Shown: one piece after another, positions 4,079 through 59,647 of the stretch
How the letters are laid out: each line of letters begins with the position of its first letter
Position numbering within the stretch: the stretch's first letter is position 1
Assembly (NCBI GenBank): GCA_000004985.1
Contig: GG738906.1
DNA from: Naegleria gruberi
Taxonomy: Eukaryota
Length of the DNA: 64,000 bases
Strand: one strand, 5' to 3'
The notes under the pieces: model-generated
What the model saw: the letters and a program-made list of their open reading frames with translations, nothing else
Database searches by the model: none
Told to the model about the DNA's origin: nothing
Made by a program: the position numbers and the translations under genes

Positions 4079-5815
4079 ATGCCAAGTGTAAAAGCCAACA
4101 ATAGTTTTAAATTGAACGATACTGCTCGGAAGATCATTGATTCCTACCAAGAGAGTAGTGATGAAGAAGATGCCGGAATGGTAACAAAAAGACAAGCTAG
4201 ACAAGATTTGACATTTACTAAATCTAAAACACAAAAGGATGTAAATCAAGAAATTATTGATAAATTCTTAAAGGCAAATCCTGATGTTAATGTTGCTACT
4301 AAAAAACCAAAGGATGAAATTGAAGAATCTGTCAAGAGTATTGAGAAGAAAATTAAAAAACTCAAGAAGAAACTTTTAATTGTGGAAAAGGAGGAAGAAA
4401 ATGCCGATAGTATGGATACTGCATTCGGACAAGAAGATGAACACAAATCAAAGAAAAAGAGAATTTTAAAGGAAATAGCATTCCTCAAGGAATCTCTTAT
4501 TGTTAAAAGTTCACAATTAAAGAGAAAGAAAAATCAAGAATTCAGAGAAGGAAAGGAAGAGGAAGAAAAAGGAAAAAACCTTGTTGTTAAAACAATTGTA
4601 GATGTTGAACAAAAACCAGAAACAGAAGAAGAAAATAATATTTCACTTACTGGAACAGAAATTCCAAATGAAGACGAAGATGAAGTTGAATCATCAGCAA
4701 CAAATGAACCACCTTCAAAGAAATCTAAGGAATCATCCGAAAAGAATCTCACAAAGAAAAGAGTTATTGTTGAATATGTTCCACCATACACTAGAAAGAA
4801 TTACAGTGTCGCTGTTGCCATCCCTGGATGTGTACTTGATTCAAACATGTCAGAAGAACAAAAGACATTATTGTGCATTTCTATAGCTCGTGCTTGTACT
4901 TGTTTAAAGGTTAATGAAATTATTATTTACAACGAAAAGGGAGAATCTATGGAAACTTCAAACTTTTTACCAAATATCGAGCCACCAATGGTTACAGAAA
5001 TGAAGACTGGCAAAAAGAATAAGAAGAAGGATGATTTTATTTCATTGGCCATTGATAGAAATGTTTATTTGGCAAATATGTTATACTATCTCGAAACACC
5101 TCCATACTTGAGAGAAAAACTCATTCCAAATCTTAAAATGTTGAAATTTGCAATGTCTTTACCACAAGACGTACTCGATAGTGCTCACCATTTGAATGCC
5201 ATGGATATGGCTCATCCTTTCAGGGAAGGTTTGGTTTTAGAAGAGGGTGATTTGGTCTATGTTGGTCATTCAAAATTAGTCAAGCTCAAGAAGAAGGTTC
5301 CACCAGGATTGAGAGTAACTGTTGAAATTTACAATACTCTTCAAGGATATCATGAAGGCAGAATTGTTAGCTCCGAGGCACCAAAACAAAAGAAGGGATT
5401 ATATTGGGGATATAATGTTCGTTTAGTTTCCTCTTTCAGTCAAATCTTTAACGAATGTTCTTACAAGGAGGGTTATGATACTGTCATAACTCATGCAGAA
5501 TTTGGTAAAAGTATTGACTCTAAAGATTATGATTTGCCAAGCTTTAAACACTTGTTAATTGTTTTGGGAGGTATGCACAACATTTCAGGCGCAATTCAAA
5601 GCGATGTGAATATTGTAAAGAATTACAATTCTAGAAATTTATTTGATCAGATAATTAACTTATGCCCAAATAACGGATTGAAGTCTATGAGAATTGATGA
5701 TGTTTTGACTCTTGGAATGGGTGCTCTTCGTAAACGTATTGATTTTAACATGCCACCTGCAGAAGTCAAAATCAAAGACCTTTCCTCATTCCTTTTACCA
5801 AATAATAATAATTAA
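4079..5815 (+). CDS. SPOUT-domain methyltransferase, C9orf114/SPOUT1 (DUF171) family; acidic and lysine-rich N-terminal half
   Basis: 578-aa single ORF. The C-terminal half contains YSVAVAIPGCVLDS…, YDTVITHAEFGKS… and LLIVLGGMHNISGA, which resemble the SPOUT1/C9orf114 fold. Family assignment is from memory of that family's motifs. Confidence 0.55.
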   Translation: MPSVKANNSFKLNDTARKIIDSYQESSDEEDAGMVTKRQARQDLTFTKSKTQKDVNQEIIDKFLKANPDVNVATKKPKDEIEESVKSIEKKIKKLKKKLLIVEKEEENADSMDTAFGQEDEHKSKKKRILKEIAFLKESLIVKSSQLKRKKNQEFREGKEEEEKGKNLVVKTIVDVEQKPETEEENNISLTGTEIPNEDEDEVESSATNEPPSKKSKESSEKNLTKKRVIVEYVPPYTRKNYSVAVAIPGCVLDSNMSEEQKTLLCISIARACTCLKVNEIIIYNEKGESMETSNFLPNIEPPMVTEMKTGKKNKKKDDFISLAIDRNVYLANMLYYLETPPYLREKLIPNLKMLKFAMSLPQDVLDSAHHLNAMDMAHPFREGLVLEEGDLVYVGHSKLVKLKKKVPPGLRVTVEIYNTLQGYHEGRIVSSEAPKQKKGLYWGYNVRLVSSFSQIFNECSYKEGYDTVITHAEFGKSIDSKDYDLPSFKHLLIVLGGMHNISGAIQSDVNIVKNYNSRNLFDQIINLCPNNGLKSMRIDDVLTLGMGALRKRIDFNMPPAEVKIKDLSSFLLPNNNN

Positions 5816-46829: not shown

Positions 46830-49278
46830 ATGTTCAACAATGCTCCACCAAAAAACCTACTATCGATAACAACAAATACTAACCAGCAACTTCAACAACA
46901 ACTCATACCAACATTTAACATGTCCACAAATAATCAACCAACACACGCATCTTCTTTGACACCAAGTTTGAATAATATAGAAGTAGTTGGGAATGACAAC
47001 ATTCCCTCATCTGGAACAAATATAGATTTAATTAAGCAATTGCTCAATTCTAATCCACAACTACAAATGTACCTACATCAACTTGCCAATCAAACAGAAA
47101 ACAGTAACTCCATGTTGACAACATCCAATAATAATGTTAAAGTAGCAACAATTTCAGACCAAACAAATTCAACAATCGACAATATTCTTTCACTATTCAA
47201 TCAAAGCAATGAATCAAACAACATGTTACAACATCCTGGCAACTATGTATTAAATCACATGCCACAACTCCAAGAGCATAATATTACCTCCAATGCACAA
47301 CCAATGATGCATGGAGATTCTCAACATATTCTATCCCTCTATCTTTCATCAGAGGAAGTACAACAGTTGTTATTGTTGGATCAAGAAGCAACAAACAATA
47401 CTACCACCTTAAATCAACCCCAAATTACATCTCAAAGTTTTGTCAATCCATCAATTTTAAACAATAATTCACTAATAGTAGCAAACGAACAACCACCACT
47501 CTTTACATGCTCTAATTCTGGTACCAGAATCAATACGTGTGCATCTATTGAAGATCATAACAACGCATCCACACATTCTGACCATTTCCTTCATGATGTT
47601 TCTCCTTCGCTTCTTGCATCGCAACAAAATTTGCCTCACCATCAAAAACAAAATACTGCAAACATTGTTCGAAAGCATTCAATCCCCGATCTTCAACTTC
47701 ATCAACATCAACCTATCGTCAATCTCTTATATTCAACATCAACAACAATTAACCAAAATAATCATCACATGATTCAGCCACAAACAACAAATACACAATT
47801 TAATATGGAAATTTCTCCCTCTCCTTCACTTTCATTGCAAATTAATGAAATGGATTTTTATGATTTGCAATATATGAATCAGCCTTTAACGGATTTAGCT
47901 CCCCAACAATATAACAGATATATTTTTGATGGCTGTGAATTCATTCTACCCATCAGGTATTCACCAATAATGAGAGGTTCACAAGTAGTTTTTCTAGGAA
48001 GAGGAGCATACGGGCATGTAATTGCAGCAAATGACACTCAATCAGGAACAACAGTAGCTATTAAGAAAGTACAAAACGTATTTGATAAAGCTGCTTATAG
48101 AATGTTGAGAGGTTTGTGATTTTTATTTCAATAATTTTATTTATTATTTTTATTATTTAAAATAATAATTAATAATTATTTATTTTTATAATTTAATATT
48201 TTAGAGGTGAAAATAATGAGACATTTGAGAGGTCATCCAAATGTAAGTTTAAATTTAATTTTCCAAATTTTATCAATGTTTCAACTGTTATTTGAAAACA
48301 TTCATTATTTTGGATATAGATTGTGACATTAATTGATATTTTTATTCCTGGAAATACGTTAAATGAGTTTAAGGATTTGTATATAGTTTCAGAGTGTATG
48401 AATGGTGATTTAGGAAGAGTGATGACCAATCTATGCAATCAAAAGCAATGTTTATCAATAGATAATATTCGCGATATTATGGGGCAATTATTGAGTGCCA
48501 TGTACTATTTACAGAGTGCAGGAGTACTCCATAGAGATATGAAACCGAGCAATATTTTACTGTCACATAAATTCCAAGTTAAATTGAGCGATTTTGGAAT
48601 GAGTAGAAATGAGGCAACCAATCAACAAGTAACCAATCCTCAAAGTTTTGCTGTTGTAACTGAAATTTATCGACCTGTATGTACTTTACATTCTTTCCTT
48701 TATTGGAATTCGAAATGATCAATATTATACTTCAGCCTGAAGTTGTTTTGAATTATGAGATACAAACTTCTGCAATAGATTCGTGGTCTGTTGGATGTAT
48801 TTTTGCAGAGCTGTTATACATGTTACCGCCATCCTCAAAGAGAAGACCATTATTTGTAATTCTAAAGGATAGTGAAATTAGAGCGCCAAACCACTATGAA
48901 CATTTAAACTTGATGGCTTCTTTATTGGGAAAACCAAAGACAAATGAATTGAAAGGAAATCCACAATATGTACAAGAATTATTGGAATTATTGGAAAATT
49001 TCCCATCTCAAGGATATGATTTTTCTCTAATTTTCCCAGCAGCACCTCCGGAAGCCATTGATCTAATGAAAAGGTTTTTAACATGGAATCCAGAATCAAG
49101 GATATCCTTTGAGGAGGCTCTTAATCATCCCTTCATAAGGAGTAGTAATATGATAAACAGAATTAGGGCTGGCGAAAAAATTGGATCATTGGATGACGAT
49201 GTCAATGTGAGTTCGGAAAAGATAAAATTCCTCTTTTACAAGGAGATAGTGAGCTGGAAATTGGAAAATAAAAACTAA
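46830..49278 (+). CDS. CMGC-group (MAPK/CDK-like) protein kinase with a ~380-aa N/Q/T-rich N-terminal extension. Exons 46830..48111, 48205..48242, 48320..48676, 48736..49278
   Basis: GRGAYGHVIAA…VAIKKV; R|EVKIMRHLRGHPN|IVTLIDIF; HRDMKPSNILL; DFGMSR; activation segment VVTEIYRP|PEVVLNY; DSWSVGCIFAELL. Intron 1 is 93 nt and pure A+T-rich. Confidence 0.75.
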
Positions 49279-56159: not shown

Positions 56160-58471
56160 TTAAAAATGGTTTTTATTTGGCTTTTTGTTTTGAGCAATAA
56201 CAGCTTGGGAATTGTAAAGGTCAGCTATTTGCTCTGCTGAGGTGGCTTGTTCTGGCTTTTTGTCTTCTCTTGTTCTAACAAATCTTGGAAATCTTAGGGC
56301 AATACCTTTAGATTCATCAACTAGTCCTATTGCAGCCATGTGAGCAGGCGAAATGGTAAGATCAGCTGCCTTAATCTCCCAAACAACATTGGCATCAAAC
56401 CATACATCAGGTCTTTGACTTTCTCTAAAGCTAAAGTAGGATTTTGGTGCAGAAATTATGTGTTCATTCATTTTATCTGCACATTCCTTCAGCATTTCGT
56501 CTGAAAATCCTGTTCCTATCTTACATATAGATTGGTATTGGTCGGATTCTGGATCAAAGCATGCAAGTAAAAAGCCACCATAAACACCAGTACGTTTACC
56601 TCTTCCCTTGTAGCCTCCGATAACTACCAAGTCAACCGAGTCACCTAACCCTTCAATATAATCCTTCTTAAGCTTTAACCAGTTGAAAGACCTTTTTGAG
56701 GGTTCATAAGTGGCATCTACCTCTAAAGTTTTAACCATCAAACCTTCACAGTTACCCTTGATTGAATCTTCCAAAAACACTTGAATGTCATTAAGGTCGT
56801 TTGTATCTCTGTGGGATGCAAACATGAATTTATCGTCAGAGGTAGCGAAAGAATCATGAAGTATTCCTCTTCTTTCCTTAAGATTCTTCTTGAGGCATGA
56901 CTCACCATTAATGTACAGAATATCAAAGGCAAATAGACAAACCTGAACCTTGATATCATTAATATTAATATTTTTTCTTCCTCTTGTGCTTAGTACCTGG
57001 AAAGGTTTAATCTTTTTTTCAATAGGATCAAAGGCAACAACCTCACAGTCAATAATGAAACTCTTGACATGTTCTTTAGTAACTTGAGGAAGCATTTGAA
57101 TCAAGTCAGGATATTTGCTGGTGTGGTTTTCCATATTTCTACTGAAAATTTTGATAGACTTATCTGGAAGCATGTGTATTTGGGCTCTCTCTCCATCATA
57201 TTTGAATTCACAGGTAAATTCTTTTTCTCCAAACCTGTCAAATAATTCTTGAACACCTTTTGCGCTCTTAGCCAACATTGGACGAACTGGAAATCCAGGT
57301 TTCAAATGGCAAATATCATGTAACTTTTCGAAACCATGTTCTAATAAAGCTGGTATAATGTCATCATAACTTGGAAGTTCAGAGTAGACAGATTTAAGAG
57401 TTTCCTTAGCAAACTTAAGGTCTGCTTCATCTAGAACTTTTTTACCACCCCTACTCAATAAAATCGCATGGGAAAGAGCAATTAGCACTGTCTCTTCACC
57501 AAGTCCTATTCTCAATTTACCTTGTAAGGACCTTATGATAAACATTGGCTCAACATCAACTGAGGAAACGAGCAATAATTTAATCTTCTCTACTTTTGTG
57601 TTCATACTCTTCTTACCTTCTGTTGTGGCAATAAATTTGAACGAATCATAAACACTCTTAAGGGTTAATGATTTAGGTTTGAACATGGTTTTTTGTGTAC
57701 TTCTAGCTACATTTGCCACTAGACCAAGATCACCTTCTTTAACACTCAATTCTTTGATTTTCTTCAATGTCTTTCCGGTTGCCTCTGCTAGAGCTTTCAT
57801 AATTAAACTTTCACCAACACCCAACTCGATACCAAAGTGGGAAGGCGCTAATTTGTTAATAGATAAATAGACAGAATAAAGCAAATCACTTGGTGATGTA
57901 GCAATAATACTTCTAAAACAATTACATAACAGTTCAGTTTTTTTGATAGAAGAACCAATTTTTGAAATTTCATCTAAAGTTTTGGCAAGAAAAAGGTATG
58001 GTGCACTTTTAAATTTAGACAAAATTAGAGTAGTAAAAACAAACCTATTTCCAGTCTTCCAGGTTGCAGAGGCGATTGGGTCGTATGAGTTGTATTCATA
58101 GTTTGGAGCTTTAGAATTCTTTTTAACACTCGTTGAAACTTTACAAGAAACCGAATCATTTTCTTCTTCAATCTCATCATGATCTTCTTCCTCTTCTTCA
58201 TCGGAAGAGTATGATGTAGTATCCATTAATGTAGAGGTTTTTTCCTCCTCCTCTTCTTCTATTGTTTCGTCATCAATTTCATCATCTATTATTTTTCTTT
58301 TTTTTGTTTCATCGGATTGTTCAACTTTTTCTTTTCTCTCCTCATCGTTTCTTTTTCTTTTCTCTGTTTGTTGCGAATTTTTTGATCCAAAGAATGATCT
58401 GTTTTTACGGTAATTATGGCTTTGCTCCAGATTTGTGAAACTTACGTCAAGGAAGATTGTTCTTTTTTCAT
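56160..58471 (-). CDS. LIG1: ATP-dependent DNA ligase I with an N-terminal PCNA-interacting PIP box. Exons 58446..58471 (26-nt first exon) and 56160..58398, separated by a 47-nt intron 58399..58445 (GTAAGT…AAACAG)
   Basis: Catalytic motifs EFTCEFKYDGERAQIH (KxDGxR), …EGLMVK…, DLVVIGGYKGRGKRTG, plus a DNA-binding domain and an OB fold. The ORF-track N-terminus (MMRVDIEC…, from 58703) is non-genic read-through. Splicing ATGAAAAAAGAACAATCTTCCTTGAC|GTAAGT…CAG|A gives MKKEQSSLTSFFGSKNSQQTEKRKR…, with a canonical QxxLxxFF PIP box (human LIG1 has MQRSIMSFF). Confidence 0.85.
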
Positions 58472-58807
58472 TTTTTTTTATTTTTAACAACAATTTTTGG
58501 CGCGATGTCGTTTCATTAATTCTGGTTGAGACAGTAACATTGTTAACTTGATTCAAACAATCAAAAAGTAAATCCCAAAAGGCTGACACATTCATTTTCA
58601 TAGTAACATGAACATTCTTTGGAAGATTTGTCATGTGATAAATGTCACACACAGTTCTTCCATCACAAAACCTGGAGTTACATTCAATATCAACCCTCAT
58701 CAATTCACATTCAAAGAGGGATGGATTAATGAGATAGGCTATTGTGCATGGATCGTGGAGTGGGGGATTTCTTTTGATTTTGTATTAATATAGAGTATTT
58801 GAAATAC

Positions 58808-59647
58808 TTACTCCATGTAAAACACTCTCTTATAAGTTTGCTTGAAAAAGAGCAACAACTGTTTACAAATAGTTCCAAAATTTGAGTTCATATCTTCACA
58901 TCTTTTGATAATTTCTGGTGTGGCTAAGGCTGTGTGAGTAACTTCCAATGGTACCATTACAACTTTCAAGCCTGATTCAAATAGGACTTGGGCAGCTTCT
59001 GGATCTCCTTCCACATTAAATTCAGCAGCCCTACCAGTATTTCCAAAATTAATGGCTCCTCCCATAACAATAATTTGTGAAATGTATTGTTTAACTTCTG
59101 GATATAATATCAATAAAAGAGCAGCATTGGTAAATTGACCTGTACATACAAGATTGACAGGTCTTTTTTGAGATGAAATAACCTTGTACATATAGTTGAC
59201 TGCTTTTTCATCAGCTATTGGGCTCTTATTTGGGATAGGAAATGTTGGTCCATCAAAGTCTAAACCAGACTCACCATGAATTTCCGCACAACTTTAAATA
59301 AATCAAAATAAATAATCATAATTTCAATTTTCATAAATAAACATTGTGAAAACCTACTGCTTGGCAGGTCGAATGATCGGTTTGCTTTGTCCTCTAACAA
59401 CAGGGATGTCAGCAAAATTTGGTCCCATAGATGATATGGCCTTCAAACAATTGATTGTAGTCTTGTCAACAGATTGATTACCTCCTACTGATGAAATTCC
59501 TAACAATTTAATGGATGGATGAATACACATCAAAATAGCAAAAAAATCATCGTGACCAGGGTCACAGTCAAGCCTTAACTTGTTCAAAATACATCGGACA
59601 ATGTCAAATACATACCACACGAGTGAAGGATCTTCATAGGTAGCCAT
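58808..59647 (-). CDS. Inosine-uridine-preferring nucleoside hydrolase (IU-NH). Two exons, approximately 59358..59647 and 58808..59291, with a ~66-nt intron
   Basis: The N-terminal IU-NH signature is LDCDPGHDDFFAIL. After the intron comes …LCGIHGESGLDFDGP…, then VMGGAINFGN, EFNVEGDPEAAQ and VMVPLEVTH. The exact splice junction is unresolved: the GTAGGT donor after …PAKQ is phase 2 but the only acceptor (TTTAAAG|) is phase 0. Confidence 0.7.

What the first reader, a model, noticed from the sequence alone, without database searches (positions are those of the whole stretch)
58399..58703. DNA ligase I real start: a 26-nt first exon carrying a PIP box that is split by a 47-nt intron
The ORF-track product begins with 100 aa of non-genic read-through (MMRVDIECNSRFCDG…). 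Within that read-through, a GTAAGT donor and a …CAG acceptor splice a tiny exon (ATGAAAAAAGAACAATCTTCCTTGAC) onto the main ORF. The result is MKKEQSSLTSFFGSK…, a textbook QxxLxxFF PCNA-binding motif placed exactly where LIG1 orthologues have it (MQRSIMSFF). The motif's two halves lie on different exons, so a naive ORF call would miss the PCNA-interaction site.
Basis: partly seen in the sequence, partly recalled or inferred. Interest (0 to 1): 0.5.

Follow-up and report, generated by a model that had tools for sequence, protein, structure and literature searches.

The report
Naegleria DNA ligase I true start
The replicative DNA ligase gene of the amoeba Naegleria gruberi very probably starts with a tiny exon that, once a 47-base intron is removed, supplies the first half of its clamp (PCNA)-binding motif; this corrects the public gene model, but the feature itself is ordinary and well known.

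Summary
On the minus strand, ATG 58471 opens a 26-nt coding exon (58471-58446). A GTAAGT...CAG intron of 47 nt (58445-58399) joins it to the long ORF and gives MKKEQSSLTSFFGSK, a canonical PIP box (QSSLTSFF).

The window is Naegleria gruberi NEG-M. Its public protein, XP_002671362.1, is the naive unspliced 846-aa ORF. Annotated orthologues in N. fowleri and Willaertia magna have the same mini-exon, with an intron at the identical position and phase. In those two species a stop inside the intron closes the exon-2 frame, so splicing is needed to keep the motif. The same intron position also occurs in Balamuthia, Lingula and a frog, so the position is ancient.

- **Upstream "read-through".** It is not non-genic. 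About 62 codons are the last exon of an unannotated inosine-uridine nucleoside hydrolase gene. A 1-nt deletion at 58533, relative to a 99.9% identical metagenome contig, removes that gene's stop codon.
- **Second intron.** A 39-nt in-frame intron (58044-58006) was missed. The true protein is 741 aa.

I found no transcript data. The result is a sound gene-model correction of low novelty.

The parts
58446..58471 (-). Coding part of LIG1 exon 1. ATGAAAAAAGAACAATCTTCCTTGAC encodes MKKEQSSL plus the first two bases of Thr9, i.e. the Q-x-x-L half of the PIP box.
   Evidence: Homologous to the 20-nt exon 1 of N. fowleri and W. magna. An in-frame TAA lies 9 nt upstream.
58399..58445 (-). LIG1 intron 1: 47 nt, GTAAGT...AACAG, phase 2, lying in the codon after the PIP-box Leu.
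   Evidence: Same position and phase in N. fowleri, W. magna, Balamuthia, Lingula and Hymenochirus. The sequence is not conserved and its length varies (47/65/54 nt), while the flanking exons are conserved.
58045..58398 (-). LIG1 exon 2 (354 nt). It carries the S-F-F half of the PIP box, basic KRKR/KKRK clusters and an acidic tract, up to WKTGN(S).
58006..58044 (-). LIG1 intron 2: 39 nt, GTTTGT...AAAAG, phase 2, length a multiple of three and free of stops. It is therefore invisible to ORF calling and is retained in the public model as RFVFTTLILSKFK.
   Evidence: Introns at the same position in N. fowleri (61 nt) and W. magna (41 nt), and in Lingula and frog.
56160..58005 (-). LIG1 exon 3 (1846 nt including the stop). 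It encodes the DNA-binding, adenylation (KYDGER) and OB-fold domains.
58496..58503 (+). E2F-consensus-like element TTTGGCGC, 25 nt upstream of the ATG, in the 44-nt spacer between the hydrolase stop and the ligase start. Candidate S-phase promoter element (a lead only).
   Evidence: only 2 matches to TTTSSCGC in 64 kb, which is not significant by count (27 of 100 shuffles reach 2). It aligns with GGCGCCAAAA upstream of the N. fowleri gene.
58516..58770 (-). Last exon of the upstream inosine-uridine nucleoside hydrolase (IUNH) gene. It forms most of the supposed read-through. The stop TAA at 58518-58516 is in frame only if the T missing at 58533 is restored.
58533..58533 (-). Site of a 1-nt difference. 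The window has GTTAC-T-GTC where the metagenome contig L001 has GTTAC-TT-GTC. The window version removes the hydrolase stop and puts its frame in phase with the ligase frame.
   Evidence: The L001 version restores the C-terminus ...VTCLNQN*, matching N. fowleri ...ATCLNH* and W. magna ...VTCLNK*.
58516..59647 (-). Whole IUNH gene: four exons, with introns of 42, 66 (59357-59292) and 41 nt (58811-58771). No N. gruberi protein for it appeared in the protein-collection search.

Best explanation
The locus is the Naegleria gruberi gene for the replicative DNA ligase I. It has three exons on the minus strand (26 nt of coding sequence, then 354 and 1846 nt) and two short GT-AG introns (47 and 39 nt). 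It encodes a 741-aa protein.

Inferred steps: transcription starts in the 44-nt spacer downstream of the neighbouring nucleoside-hydrolase gene, and translation starts at ATG 58471. Removing intron 1 joins M-K-K-E-Q-S-S-L-T(AC|A) to S-F-F-G-S-K and creates the N-terminal PIP box QSSLTSFF.

By analogy with human LIG1 and yeast Cdc9, this motif would insert into the hydrophobic pocket under the interdomain connector loop of PCNA. That would recruit the ligase to replication forks and repair sites to seal Okazaki-fragment nicks. The basic clusters that follow (KRKR, KKRK) probably act as a nuclear localisation signal.

The long ORF that runs about 100 codons further upstream is an accident of three things. 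Intron 1 has no stop in that frame. The spacer is short. A single-base deletion in this assembly abolishes the hydrolase stop codon.

The intron that splits the PIP box sits at an ancient position shared with Amoebozoa and animals.

Shown here: the sequence anatomy, the orthology, the conserved intron positions and phases, and that the orthologues need the intron removed to keep the motif. Inferred: actual splicing in N. gruberi, PCNA binding, nuclear import and the promoter position.
For: - **Anatomy.** Exon, intron and spliced peptide verified.
- **Organism and public model.** P0121, XP_002671362.1, N. gruberi, 846 aa, is identical to the window ORF.
- **LIG1 identity.**
- **Vahlkampfiid orthologues.**
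  - N. fowleri reads ATGAAACAAACCTTTTTGGC|65-nt intron|AGCGTTC.
  - W. magna reads ATGAAACAACAATCATTAGC|54-nt intron|ATCATTTTTC.
  - Both share the window's phase-2 position.
- **Splicing is needed in the orthologues.**
  - Their exon-2 frame hits a stop 12 and 1 codons upstream of the acceptor.
  - In W. magna the next in-frame Met is far downstream (...STQKTMFKP), well inside the conserved catalytic core.
- **Wider taxa.** Balamuthia, Lingula and Hymenochirus have the same position and phase.
- **N-terminal alignment.** Q, L and F are invariant, and the 13-aa insert is unique to the public model.
- **Other LIG1 hits.** 54 of 119 carry a strict PIP box starting within the first 15 residues.
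- **Intron size.** Neighbouring introns in the same locus are 39-66 nt with GTAAGT, GTAGGT, GTATGT or GTTTGT donors.
- **Chance.** About 3-4e-4.
- **Upstream ORF explained.** It is the hydrolase tail plus a 1-nt indel.
- **PIP-box function in LIG1/Cdc9.** PMC1865074 and PMC6052137.
Against: - No transcript or junction evidence for N. gruberi itself was found.
  - The spliced 741-aa and 754-aa proteins are not in the 15-billion-protein collection.
  - The spliced junction is absent from JGI metagenome contigs.
  - The N-terminal fragment search was uninformative.
- I did not verify that the orthologue gene models are RNA-supported. They are automated annotations.
- GTAAGT is not enriched in the window.
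- No branch-point consensus was examined.
- The N. fowleri motif ends F-M rather than F-F/Y.
- PCNA binding is inferred only by homology.
Confidence: 0.9

Rival explanations
1. The public model is right: the ligase is translated from the unspliced 846/847-aa ORF, and the upstream 100 residues are a genuine N-terminal extension (in effect a hydrolase-tail/ligase fusion).
For: The frame is open from 58703 to 56160 in this assembly, and this is the deposited annotation.
Against: - The extension is the C-terminus of a complete, separately conserved hydrolase gene.
- The open frame depends on a 1-nt deletion that is absent from a 99.88% identical contig.
- The extension has no counterpart in any of 119 LIG1 homologues.
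- The orthologues have stops in the equivalent intron.
- This model lacks a PIP box and keeps a 13-aa insert at a conserved intron site.
Confidence: 0.02
2. The mini-exon is a coincidence. Translation starts at the first in-frame Met inside exon 2 (Met66 of the spliced numbering, MDTTSYSS...), giving a ligase without a PIP box or basic clusters.
For: No transcript data for N. gruberi were found. An ATG exists at that point.
Against: - Residues 10-65 (SFFGSK...EKRKR...KKRK) are conserved as protein sequence in N. fowleri and W. magna, so they are coding.
- They can only be reached from the mini-exon ATG.
- Mini-exon sequence, position and phase are conserved in three vahlkampfiids and in three other lineages.
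- The chance probability is about 3-4e-4.
Confidence: 0.04
3. Intron 1 is real but is retained in a regulated way. Unspliced mRNA would yield only the 9-residue peptide MKKEQSSLT, or a PIP-less isoform by re-initiation. Splicing would then gate production of PCNA-competent ligase. This adds to the main explanation and does not replace it.
For: - A phase-2 GTRAGT donor creates an immediate in-frame stop in all six species examined.
- The intron position has been kept in three eukaryotic supergroups.
Against: - An immediate stop is an automatic consequence of any phase-2 GTAAGT or GTAGGT donor.
- 30-50% of N. gruberi intron positions are shared with other supergroups anyway (PMC3174169).
- Acrasis and Allomyces lack the intron.
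- There are no expression data.
Confidence: 0.1

Closest known systems
Human LIG1 and yeast Cdc9 N-terminal PIP box (PCNA-interacting peptide, Qxx[LIM]xx[FY][FY])
   Same: - The motif sits at the extreme N-terminus of a LIG1-type enzyme (Q at residue 5 here).
- It is followed by basic and acidic low-complexity sequence and then the DBD-AdD-OB core.
- The core matches human LIG1 at E=4e-205.
- The role of the motif in PCNA docking is established for Cdc9 and LIG1 (PMC1865074).
   Different: - Binding to Naegleria PCNA is untested.
- The non-catalytic N-terminal region is much shorter than in animal LIG1.
- No mitochondrial alternative start like that of CDC9 is evident.
Annotated orthologues FDP41_005143 (Naegleria fowleri) and ABK040_010376 (Willaertia magna)
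   Same: 79-80% protein identity. Both have the same mini-exon, the same phase-2 intron after the PIP Leu, and the same second intron before P-Y-L.
   Different: - Their coding exon 1 is 20 nt against 26 nt here (two extra codons, K-E).
- Their introns are 65 and 54 nt.
- N. fowleri has a third intron and a non-canonical motif QTFLAAFM.
- Their upstream neighbours differ (SMC_Nse1 and a P450), so there is no hydrolase read-through.
Public N. gruberi model XP_002671362.1 / NAEGRDRAFT_59468 (846 aa, 'predicted protein')
   Same: Same locus and the same catalytic core. It is identical to the window ORF from its second codon.
   Different: - It retains both introns.
- It starts inside the last exon of the neighbouring hydrolase gene.
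- It lacks the PIP box and carries a 13-aa insert.
- The corrected protein is 741 aa.
Ancient (pan-eukaryotic) spliceosomal intron positions
   Same: - Intron 1 has identical position and phase in Heterolobosea, Amoebozoa (Balamuthia) and Metazoa (Lingula, frog).
- Intron 2 is shared with Lingula and frog.
[quoted passage not shown]
   Different: - Only eight taxa were sampled.
- The intron is absent in Acrasis and Allomyces.
- Independent gain at the same site was not formally excluded.
Entamoeba histolytica DNA ligase I (EhDNAligI) N-terminal PIP box
   Same: A protist LIG1 whose N-terminal PIP box mediates the PCNA interaction (PMC6052137).
   Different: That interaction was shown experimentally. 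The Naegleria one is only inferred.

Membership tests
Eukaryotic DNA ligase I (LIG1/Cdc9) | Three-domain core: DNA-binding domain, adenylation domain and OB-fold | tested here: met
   PF04675 E=3e-45, PF01068 E=4e-67 and PF04679 E=2e-21, each covering the full profile length. TIGR00574 dnl1 scores 539 bits against a cut-off of 218.
Eukaryotic DNA ligase I (LIG1/Cdc9) | Motif I active-site lysine (KxDG) | tested here: met
   The sequence shows CEFKYDGERAQ directly.
Eukaryotic DNA ligase I (LIG1/Cdc9) | Closer to LIG1 than to the LIG3 or LIG4 paralogues | tested here: met
   Against PDB chains: human LIG1 E=4e-205, LIG3 2e-46, LIG4 2e-35.
Eukaryotic DNA ligase I (LIG1/Cdc9) | PIP box at the N-terminus | tested here: met
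   Met only in the spliced model, as QSSLTSFF at residues 5-12. The unspliced ORF has no such motif at that place. 54 of 119 homologues carry a strict motif starting within the first 15 residues.
Eukaryotic DNA ligase I (LIG1/Cdc9) | Nick-sealing activity and PCNA-dependent recruitment to replication sites | not testable with these tools
   Needs biochemistry or cell biology.
Canonical PIP box | Q-x-x-[L/I/M]-x-x-[F/Y]-[F/Y] | tested here: met
   Q5, L8, F11, F12. These residues align with Q, L and F, which are invariant in five orthologues.
Canonical PIP box | Physical binding to the PCNA interdomain-connector-loop pocket | not testable with these tools
   Inferred from Cdc9 and LIG1 (PMC1865074).
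U2-type GT-AG spliceosomal intron | GT...AG termini with a consensus-like donor | tested here: met
   GTAAGT...CAG. Donors of neighbouring introns are GTAAGT, GTAGGT, GTATGT and GTTTGT.
U2-type GT-AG spliceosomal intron | Length typical for the genome | tested here: met
   47 nt, against 39, 41, 42 and 66 nt for the four other introns inferred in this locus. This is a small local sample only.
U2-type GT-AG spliceosomal intron | Position and phase conserved in orthologues, while intron sequence and length diverge | tested here: met
U2-type GT-AG spliceosomal intron | Spliced junction observed in RNA | not testable with these tools
   No N. gruberi transcript was found.
U2-type GT-AG spliceosomal intron | Branch-point motif | not tested
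   No Naegleria branch-point consensus was available to me.
Ancient pan-eukaryotic intron position | Same codon position and phase in several eukaryotic supergroups | tested here: met
   Phase 2, in the codon after the PIP Leu/Ile, in Naegleria (two species), Willaertia, Balamuthia, Lingula and Hymenochirus. Absent in Acrasis and Allomyces.
   PF01156 positions 3-297 of 297, E=4.5e-89, on the four-exon model. 76% and 70% identity to the N. fowleri and W. magna proteins in the alignment, with matching C-termini after the T is restored.

The most novel reading that the evidence does not exclude
The phase-2 intron that splits the LIG1 PIP box dates back to the last eukaryotic common ancestor. It has been retained for more than a billion years in Discoba, Amoebozoa and animals because it does something. 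For example, an obligatory splicing event next to the start codon could gate translation of the PCNA-binding form, with unspliced RNA terminating at the donor-site stop after 6-9 codons. It could also act as an expression-enhancing first intron. On this reading the tiny 17-26-nt coding first exon would be a conserved regulatory device rather than a neutral relic.
Probability: 0.08. Interest if true: 0.5.

Novelty: new member of a known kind. Interest (0 to 1): 0.25.

Why it matters
- **Annotation.** It corrects the reference annotation of an essential replication gene in the model heterolobosean N. gruberi.
  - The deposited protein lacks the PCNA-binding motif and carries about 100 foreign N-terminal residues and a 13-residue intron-derived insert.
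  - That model would mislead anyone cloning, modelling or surveying PIP-box proteins in this organism.
- **Missing gene.** It uncovers a nucleoside hydrolase gene for which the protein-collection search found no N. gruberi model, and a probable single-base error or mutation in the reference that caused the merged ORF.
- **Intron evolution.** Both ligase introns sit at positions shared with animals. This is a clean small example of ancient intron retention around a very short first coding exon.
- None of this changes what is known about how LIG1 works.

Tried and rejected
- **Exact look-ups.** The spliced proteins (754 aa with one intron removed, 741 aa with both removed) and the versions starting at the internal Met (MDTT...) are not in the protein collection. 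So there is no transcript-derived or re-annotated N. gruberi model there.
- **Spliced junction.** A search for CAATCTTCCTTGACATCATTCTTTGG in JGI metagenome contigs gave 0 hits.
- **Indel site.** A search for the indel site in the same collection, to see whether T or TT is commoner, gave 0 hits.
- **N-terminal fragment search.** A protein search with the first 201 residues returned one weak hit and did not even recover the known orthologues, so it is uninformative.
- **Locus of the public protein.** The look-up of encoding contigs on P0121 returned nothing on record, so I could not see how the neighbouring genes are annotated in the reference.
- **GTAAGT enrichment.** Tried as support for the donor. 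It is not enriched and was dropped as an argument.
- **E2F-like motif count.** 2 matches against 0.97 expected, not significant by count. The second match lies inside a kinase-like ORF. I keep it only as a lead.
- **Literature.** I found no paper on the Naegleria ligase PIP box or on an intron in the LIG1 PIP box. The 1992 paper on human LIG1 gene structure is not held, so the human exon boundary was not checked. A frog gene was used instead.
- **Failed look-ups.** Orbicella and Centruroides loci were not on record.
- **Mitochondrial isoform.** I considered an alternative mitochondrial form from an upstream Met, as in yeast CDC9, and rejected it. The upstream in-frame Mets belong to the hydrolase exon and are not conserved even in the 99.9% identical contig.
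Full report
**1. What is in the sequence**

The feature lies on the minus strand.
- ATG at 58471.
- Coding exon ATGAAAAAAGAACAATCTTCCTTGAC, 58471-58446, 26 nt.
- Intron GTAAGT...AAAAACAG, 58445-58399, 47 nt.
- Exon 2 from 58398.

The spliced reading frame is ATG AAA AAA GAA CAA TCT TCC TTG AC|A TCA TTC TTT GGA. It gives MKKEQSSLTSFFGSK, and QSSLTSFF fits Q-x-x-[LIM]-x-x-[FY]-[FY]. An in-frame TAA lies 9 nt upstream of the ATG. Without splicing, the ATG frame ends at the donor (ACG TAA). The table-11 ORF 56160-58703 does begin MMRVDIECNSRFCDG.

**2. Organism and gene**

A protein search places the gene in Naegleria.
- 100% identity to an ENA metagenome protein (P0001).
- 79% to N. fowleri FDP41_005143.
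- 80% to Willaertia magna ABK040_010376.

The 90% cluster of P0001 also holds XP_002671362.1 / NAEGRDRAFT_59468, a "predicted protein" of N. gruberi, 846 aa. Its sequence is the window ORF from its second codon. So the window is N. gruberi NEG-M, and the public model is the naive unspliced ORF.

The protein is a LIG1-type ligase.
- Pfam DNA_ligase_A_N, _M and _C are each matched over the full profile.
- TIGR00574 scores 539 bits.
- Human LIG1 matches at E=4e-205, against 2e-46 for LIG3 and 2e-35 for LIG4.
- Motif I is KYDGER.

**3. Is the mini-exon and intron real? Comparative test**

I fetched the genomic loci of the two closest annotated orthologues and mapped their proteins back.

| Species | Coding exon 1 | Intron | Exon 2 start | Peptide |
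|---|---|---|---|---|
| N. gruberi (window) | ATGAAAAAAGAACAATCTTCCTTGAC (26 nt) | 47 nt, GTAAGT...CAG | ATCATTCTTTGGA | MKKEQSSLT\|SFFG |
| N. fowleri | ATGAAACAAACCTTTTTGGC (20 nt) | 65 nt, GTAGGT...CAG | AGCGTTCATGGGA | MKQTFLA\|AFMG |
| W. magna | ATGAAACAACAATCATTAGC (20 nt) | 54 nt, GTAGGT...AAG | ATCATTTTTCGGA | MKQQSLA\|SFFG |

In all three the intron is phase 2 and lies in the codon immediately after the PIP-box Leu.
- The exon sequences align, while intron sequence and length do not.
- In N. fowleri and W. magna the exon-2 frame is closed by a stop 12 and 1 codons upstream of the acceptor.
- In W. magna the next in-frame Met is far downstream (...STQKTMFKP), well inside the conserved catalytic core. 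There the mini-exon is the only route to a full-length ligase.
- The stretch after the junction (SFFGxK, EKRKR, KKRK, acidic tract) is conserved as protein in all three. It is therefore coding, and it can only be reached from the mini-exon ATG.

A simulation gives 3-4e-4 for the chance that 300 nt upstream contain an ATG mini-exon with a GTRNGT donor that completes the motif. GTAAGT by itself is not enriched in the window and is not used as evidence.

Among 119 LIG1 homologues, 54 have a strict PIP box starting within the first 15 residues, mostly at residue 2-5. The window protein's Q5 fits this pattern.

**4. What the upstream "read-through" really is**

That is not correct.
- ORF residues 2-44 match the C-terminal end (positions 255-297 of 297) of Pfam IU_nuc_hydro.
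- Joining this stretch to the upstream ORF fragments through GT-AG introns gives a protein with a full-length PF01156 match at E=4.5e-89. The two introns used in that model are 66 nt (59357-59292) and 41 nt (58811-58771).
- A third intron of 42 nt, in frame, near the N-terminus shows up in the alignment with orthologues.

The oddity is that in the window this hydrolase frame has no stop and runs straight into the ligase frame. The independent metagenome contig L001 is 99.88% identical over 2555 nt. It has one extra T: GTTACTTGTC against the window's GTTAC-TGTC, at window 58533. With that T the hydrolase ends ...QVNNVTCLNQN, with TAA at 58518-58516. This matches N. fowleri ...ATCLNH* and W. magna ...VTCLNK*.

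The window therefore carries a 1-nt deletion, either an assembly error or a strain mutation. The deletion removes the hydrolase stop and puts the two genes in phase. The 305 nt from 58703 to 58399 break down as follows:
- 185 nt of hydrolase coding sequence.
- Its 3-nt stop.
- 44 nt of spacer.
- 26 nt of ligase exon 1, read in the wrong frame.
- The 47-nt intron.

No N. gruberi protein for this hydrolase appeared in the protein-collection search. The best hit is N. fowleri at 77%. The gene therefore appears to be unannotated, probably because the ligase model absorbed its last exon.

**5. A second missed intron**

The window ORF reads WKTGNRFVFTTLILSKFKSAPYLF. The orthologues read WKTGTSTPYLF and WKAGEKTPYLF. 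The extra 39 nt (58044-58006, GTTTGT...AAAAG) are a multiple of three and free of stops, so ORF calling cannot see them. Removing them gives WKTGNSAPYLF.

N. fowleri and W. magna have introns of 61 and 41 nt at the same position and phase. The corrected gene has exons of 26, 354 and 1846 nt and encodes 741 aa.

**6. How old is the PIP-splitting intron?**

I mapped the first intron in other annotated LIG1 genes.

| Species | Group | Coding exon 1 | First intron | Peptide |
|---|---|---|---|---|
| Balamuthia mandrillaris | Amoebozoa | ATGCAAAGTTCTCTCAG (17 nt) | 58 nt | MQSSLR\|SFF |
| Lingula anatina | Brachiopod | ATGCAAAAATCCATCAC (17 nt) | 77 nt | MQKSIT\|SFF |
| Hymenochirus boettgeri | Frog | ATGCAACGAACCATAAA (17 nt) | 926 nt | MQRTIK\|SFF |

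All three introns are phase 2 in the codon after the PIP Leu/Ile, exactly as in Naegleria. Acrasis kona, another heterolobosean, and the fungus Allomyces macrogynus have the motif in an uninterrupted first exon.

Intron 2 is also at the same position and phase in Lingula and the frog.
- Lingula: GAA AA|GT...AG|G GTT CCA TAT.
- Frog: CAG AA|GT...AG|G GTA CCA TAT.

The simplest reading is that both are ancient intron positions with lineage-specific losses. This is expected in kind, because 30-50% of N. gruberi intron positions are reported to be shared with other supergroups (PMC3174169). I found no paper that notes this particular case.

**7. Mechanism**

By homology with human LIG1 and yeast Cdc9, the N-terminal PIP box would dock in the PCNA pocket beneath the interdomain connector loop and recruit the ligase to Okazaki-fragment nicks and repair sites (PMC1865074; PMC6052137). 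The following KRKR and KKRK clusters probably serve nuclear import. All of this is inferred, not shown here.

The spacer between the hydrolase stop and the ligase ATG is only 44 nt. It contains TTTGGCGC (58496-58503), an E2F-consensus-like element 25 nt upstream of the ATG. This is one of only two matches in 64 kb. It aligns with GGCGCCAAAA upstream of the N. fowleri gene. E2F/DP/Rb components are reported across eukaryotes, including Excavata (PMC4862756). This is a lead for an S-phase promoter, not a demonstrated site. The count alone is not significant.

**8. What could not be done**

No transcript evidence for N. gruberi was reachable. I also did not verify that the orthologue gene models are RNA-supported. 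The conclusion that intron 1 is spliced in N. gruberi rests on comparative genomics, which I consider strong (confidence 0.9).

**9. Verdict**
- The core interpretation is supported.
- The claim of "non-genic read-through" is wrong.
- A second intron, a neighbouring hydrolase gene with no N. gruberi protein in the collection, and a reference indel are added.

The biology, an N-terminal PIP box on LIG1, is textbook, and sister species already carry the correct gene model. The finding is a useful annotation correction with a small evolutionary footnote, not a discovery. Interest is 0.25.

Noticed in passing
window 58516-59647 (minus strand): A complete four-exon inosine-uridine nucleoside hydrolase gene, with introns of 42, 66 and 41 nt. 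No N. gruberi protein for it appeared in the protein-collection search; the best hit is N. fowleri at 77%. Its last exon has been absorbed into the public ligase model.
   Followed up: yes
window 58533: A single-base deletion relative to the 99.88% identical metagenome contig L001 (T against TT). It removes the hydrolase stop codon and fuses its frame to the ligase frame. The L001 version restores the conserved C-terminus ...TCLNQN*. I could not decide whether this is an assembly error or a strain mutation.
   Followed up: partly
window 58006-58044 (minus strand): A second ligase intron of 39 nt with a GTTTGT donor. It is in frame and free of stops, and the public protein retains it as a 13-residue insert. 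N. fowleri, W. magna, Lingula and a frog have an intron at the same position and phase.
   Followed up: yes
L005 1501-1600; L006 1501-1620; L008 501-1460: The intron that splits the LIG1 PIP box is at the identical position and phase in Balamuthia (Amoebozoa), Lingula and a frog. Each has a 17-nt coding first exon. It is absent in Acrasis kona (L004) and Allomyces (L007). This points to an ancient intron position.
   Followed up: partly
window 58496-58503 (+); L002 about 4958-4967: An E2F-consensus-like TTTGGCGC lies 25 nt upstream of the ligase ATG, and a matching GGCGCCAAAA lies upstream of the N. fowleri gene. W. magna has TTCCCGCC further upstream. This may be an S-phase promoter element. 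The only other match in the window (48883-48890) lies inside a kinase-like ORF.
   Followed up: partly
window 58485-58517 (minus strand): A short upstream ORF, ATGAAACGACATCGCGCCAAAAATTGTTGTTAA (MKRHRAKNCC*), overlaps the hydrolase stop and is in the same frame as the ligase ATG. It matters only if transcription starts upstream of it.
   Followed up: no
L002 5001-5100: The N. fowleri ligase motif reads QTFLAAFM, with Met in place of the last aromatic residue. This is a non-canonical PIP box.
   Followed up: no
L002 6066-6116; L004 3986-4028: N. fowleri has a third ligase intron (GKK|SMNT, phase 0) at the same position as an Acrasis kona intron (GKN|SMAK). N. gruberi and W. magna lack it.
   Followed up: no
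window 59560-59647 (minus strand): The first hydrolase intron (42 nt, GTATGT...TTAAG) is also in frame and free of stops. It would read as YVFDIVRCILNKLR if retained. Three of the five introns in this locus are invisible to ORF-based calling.
   Followed up: partly
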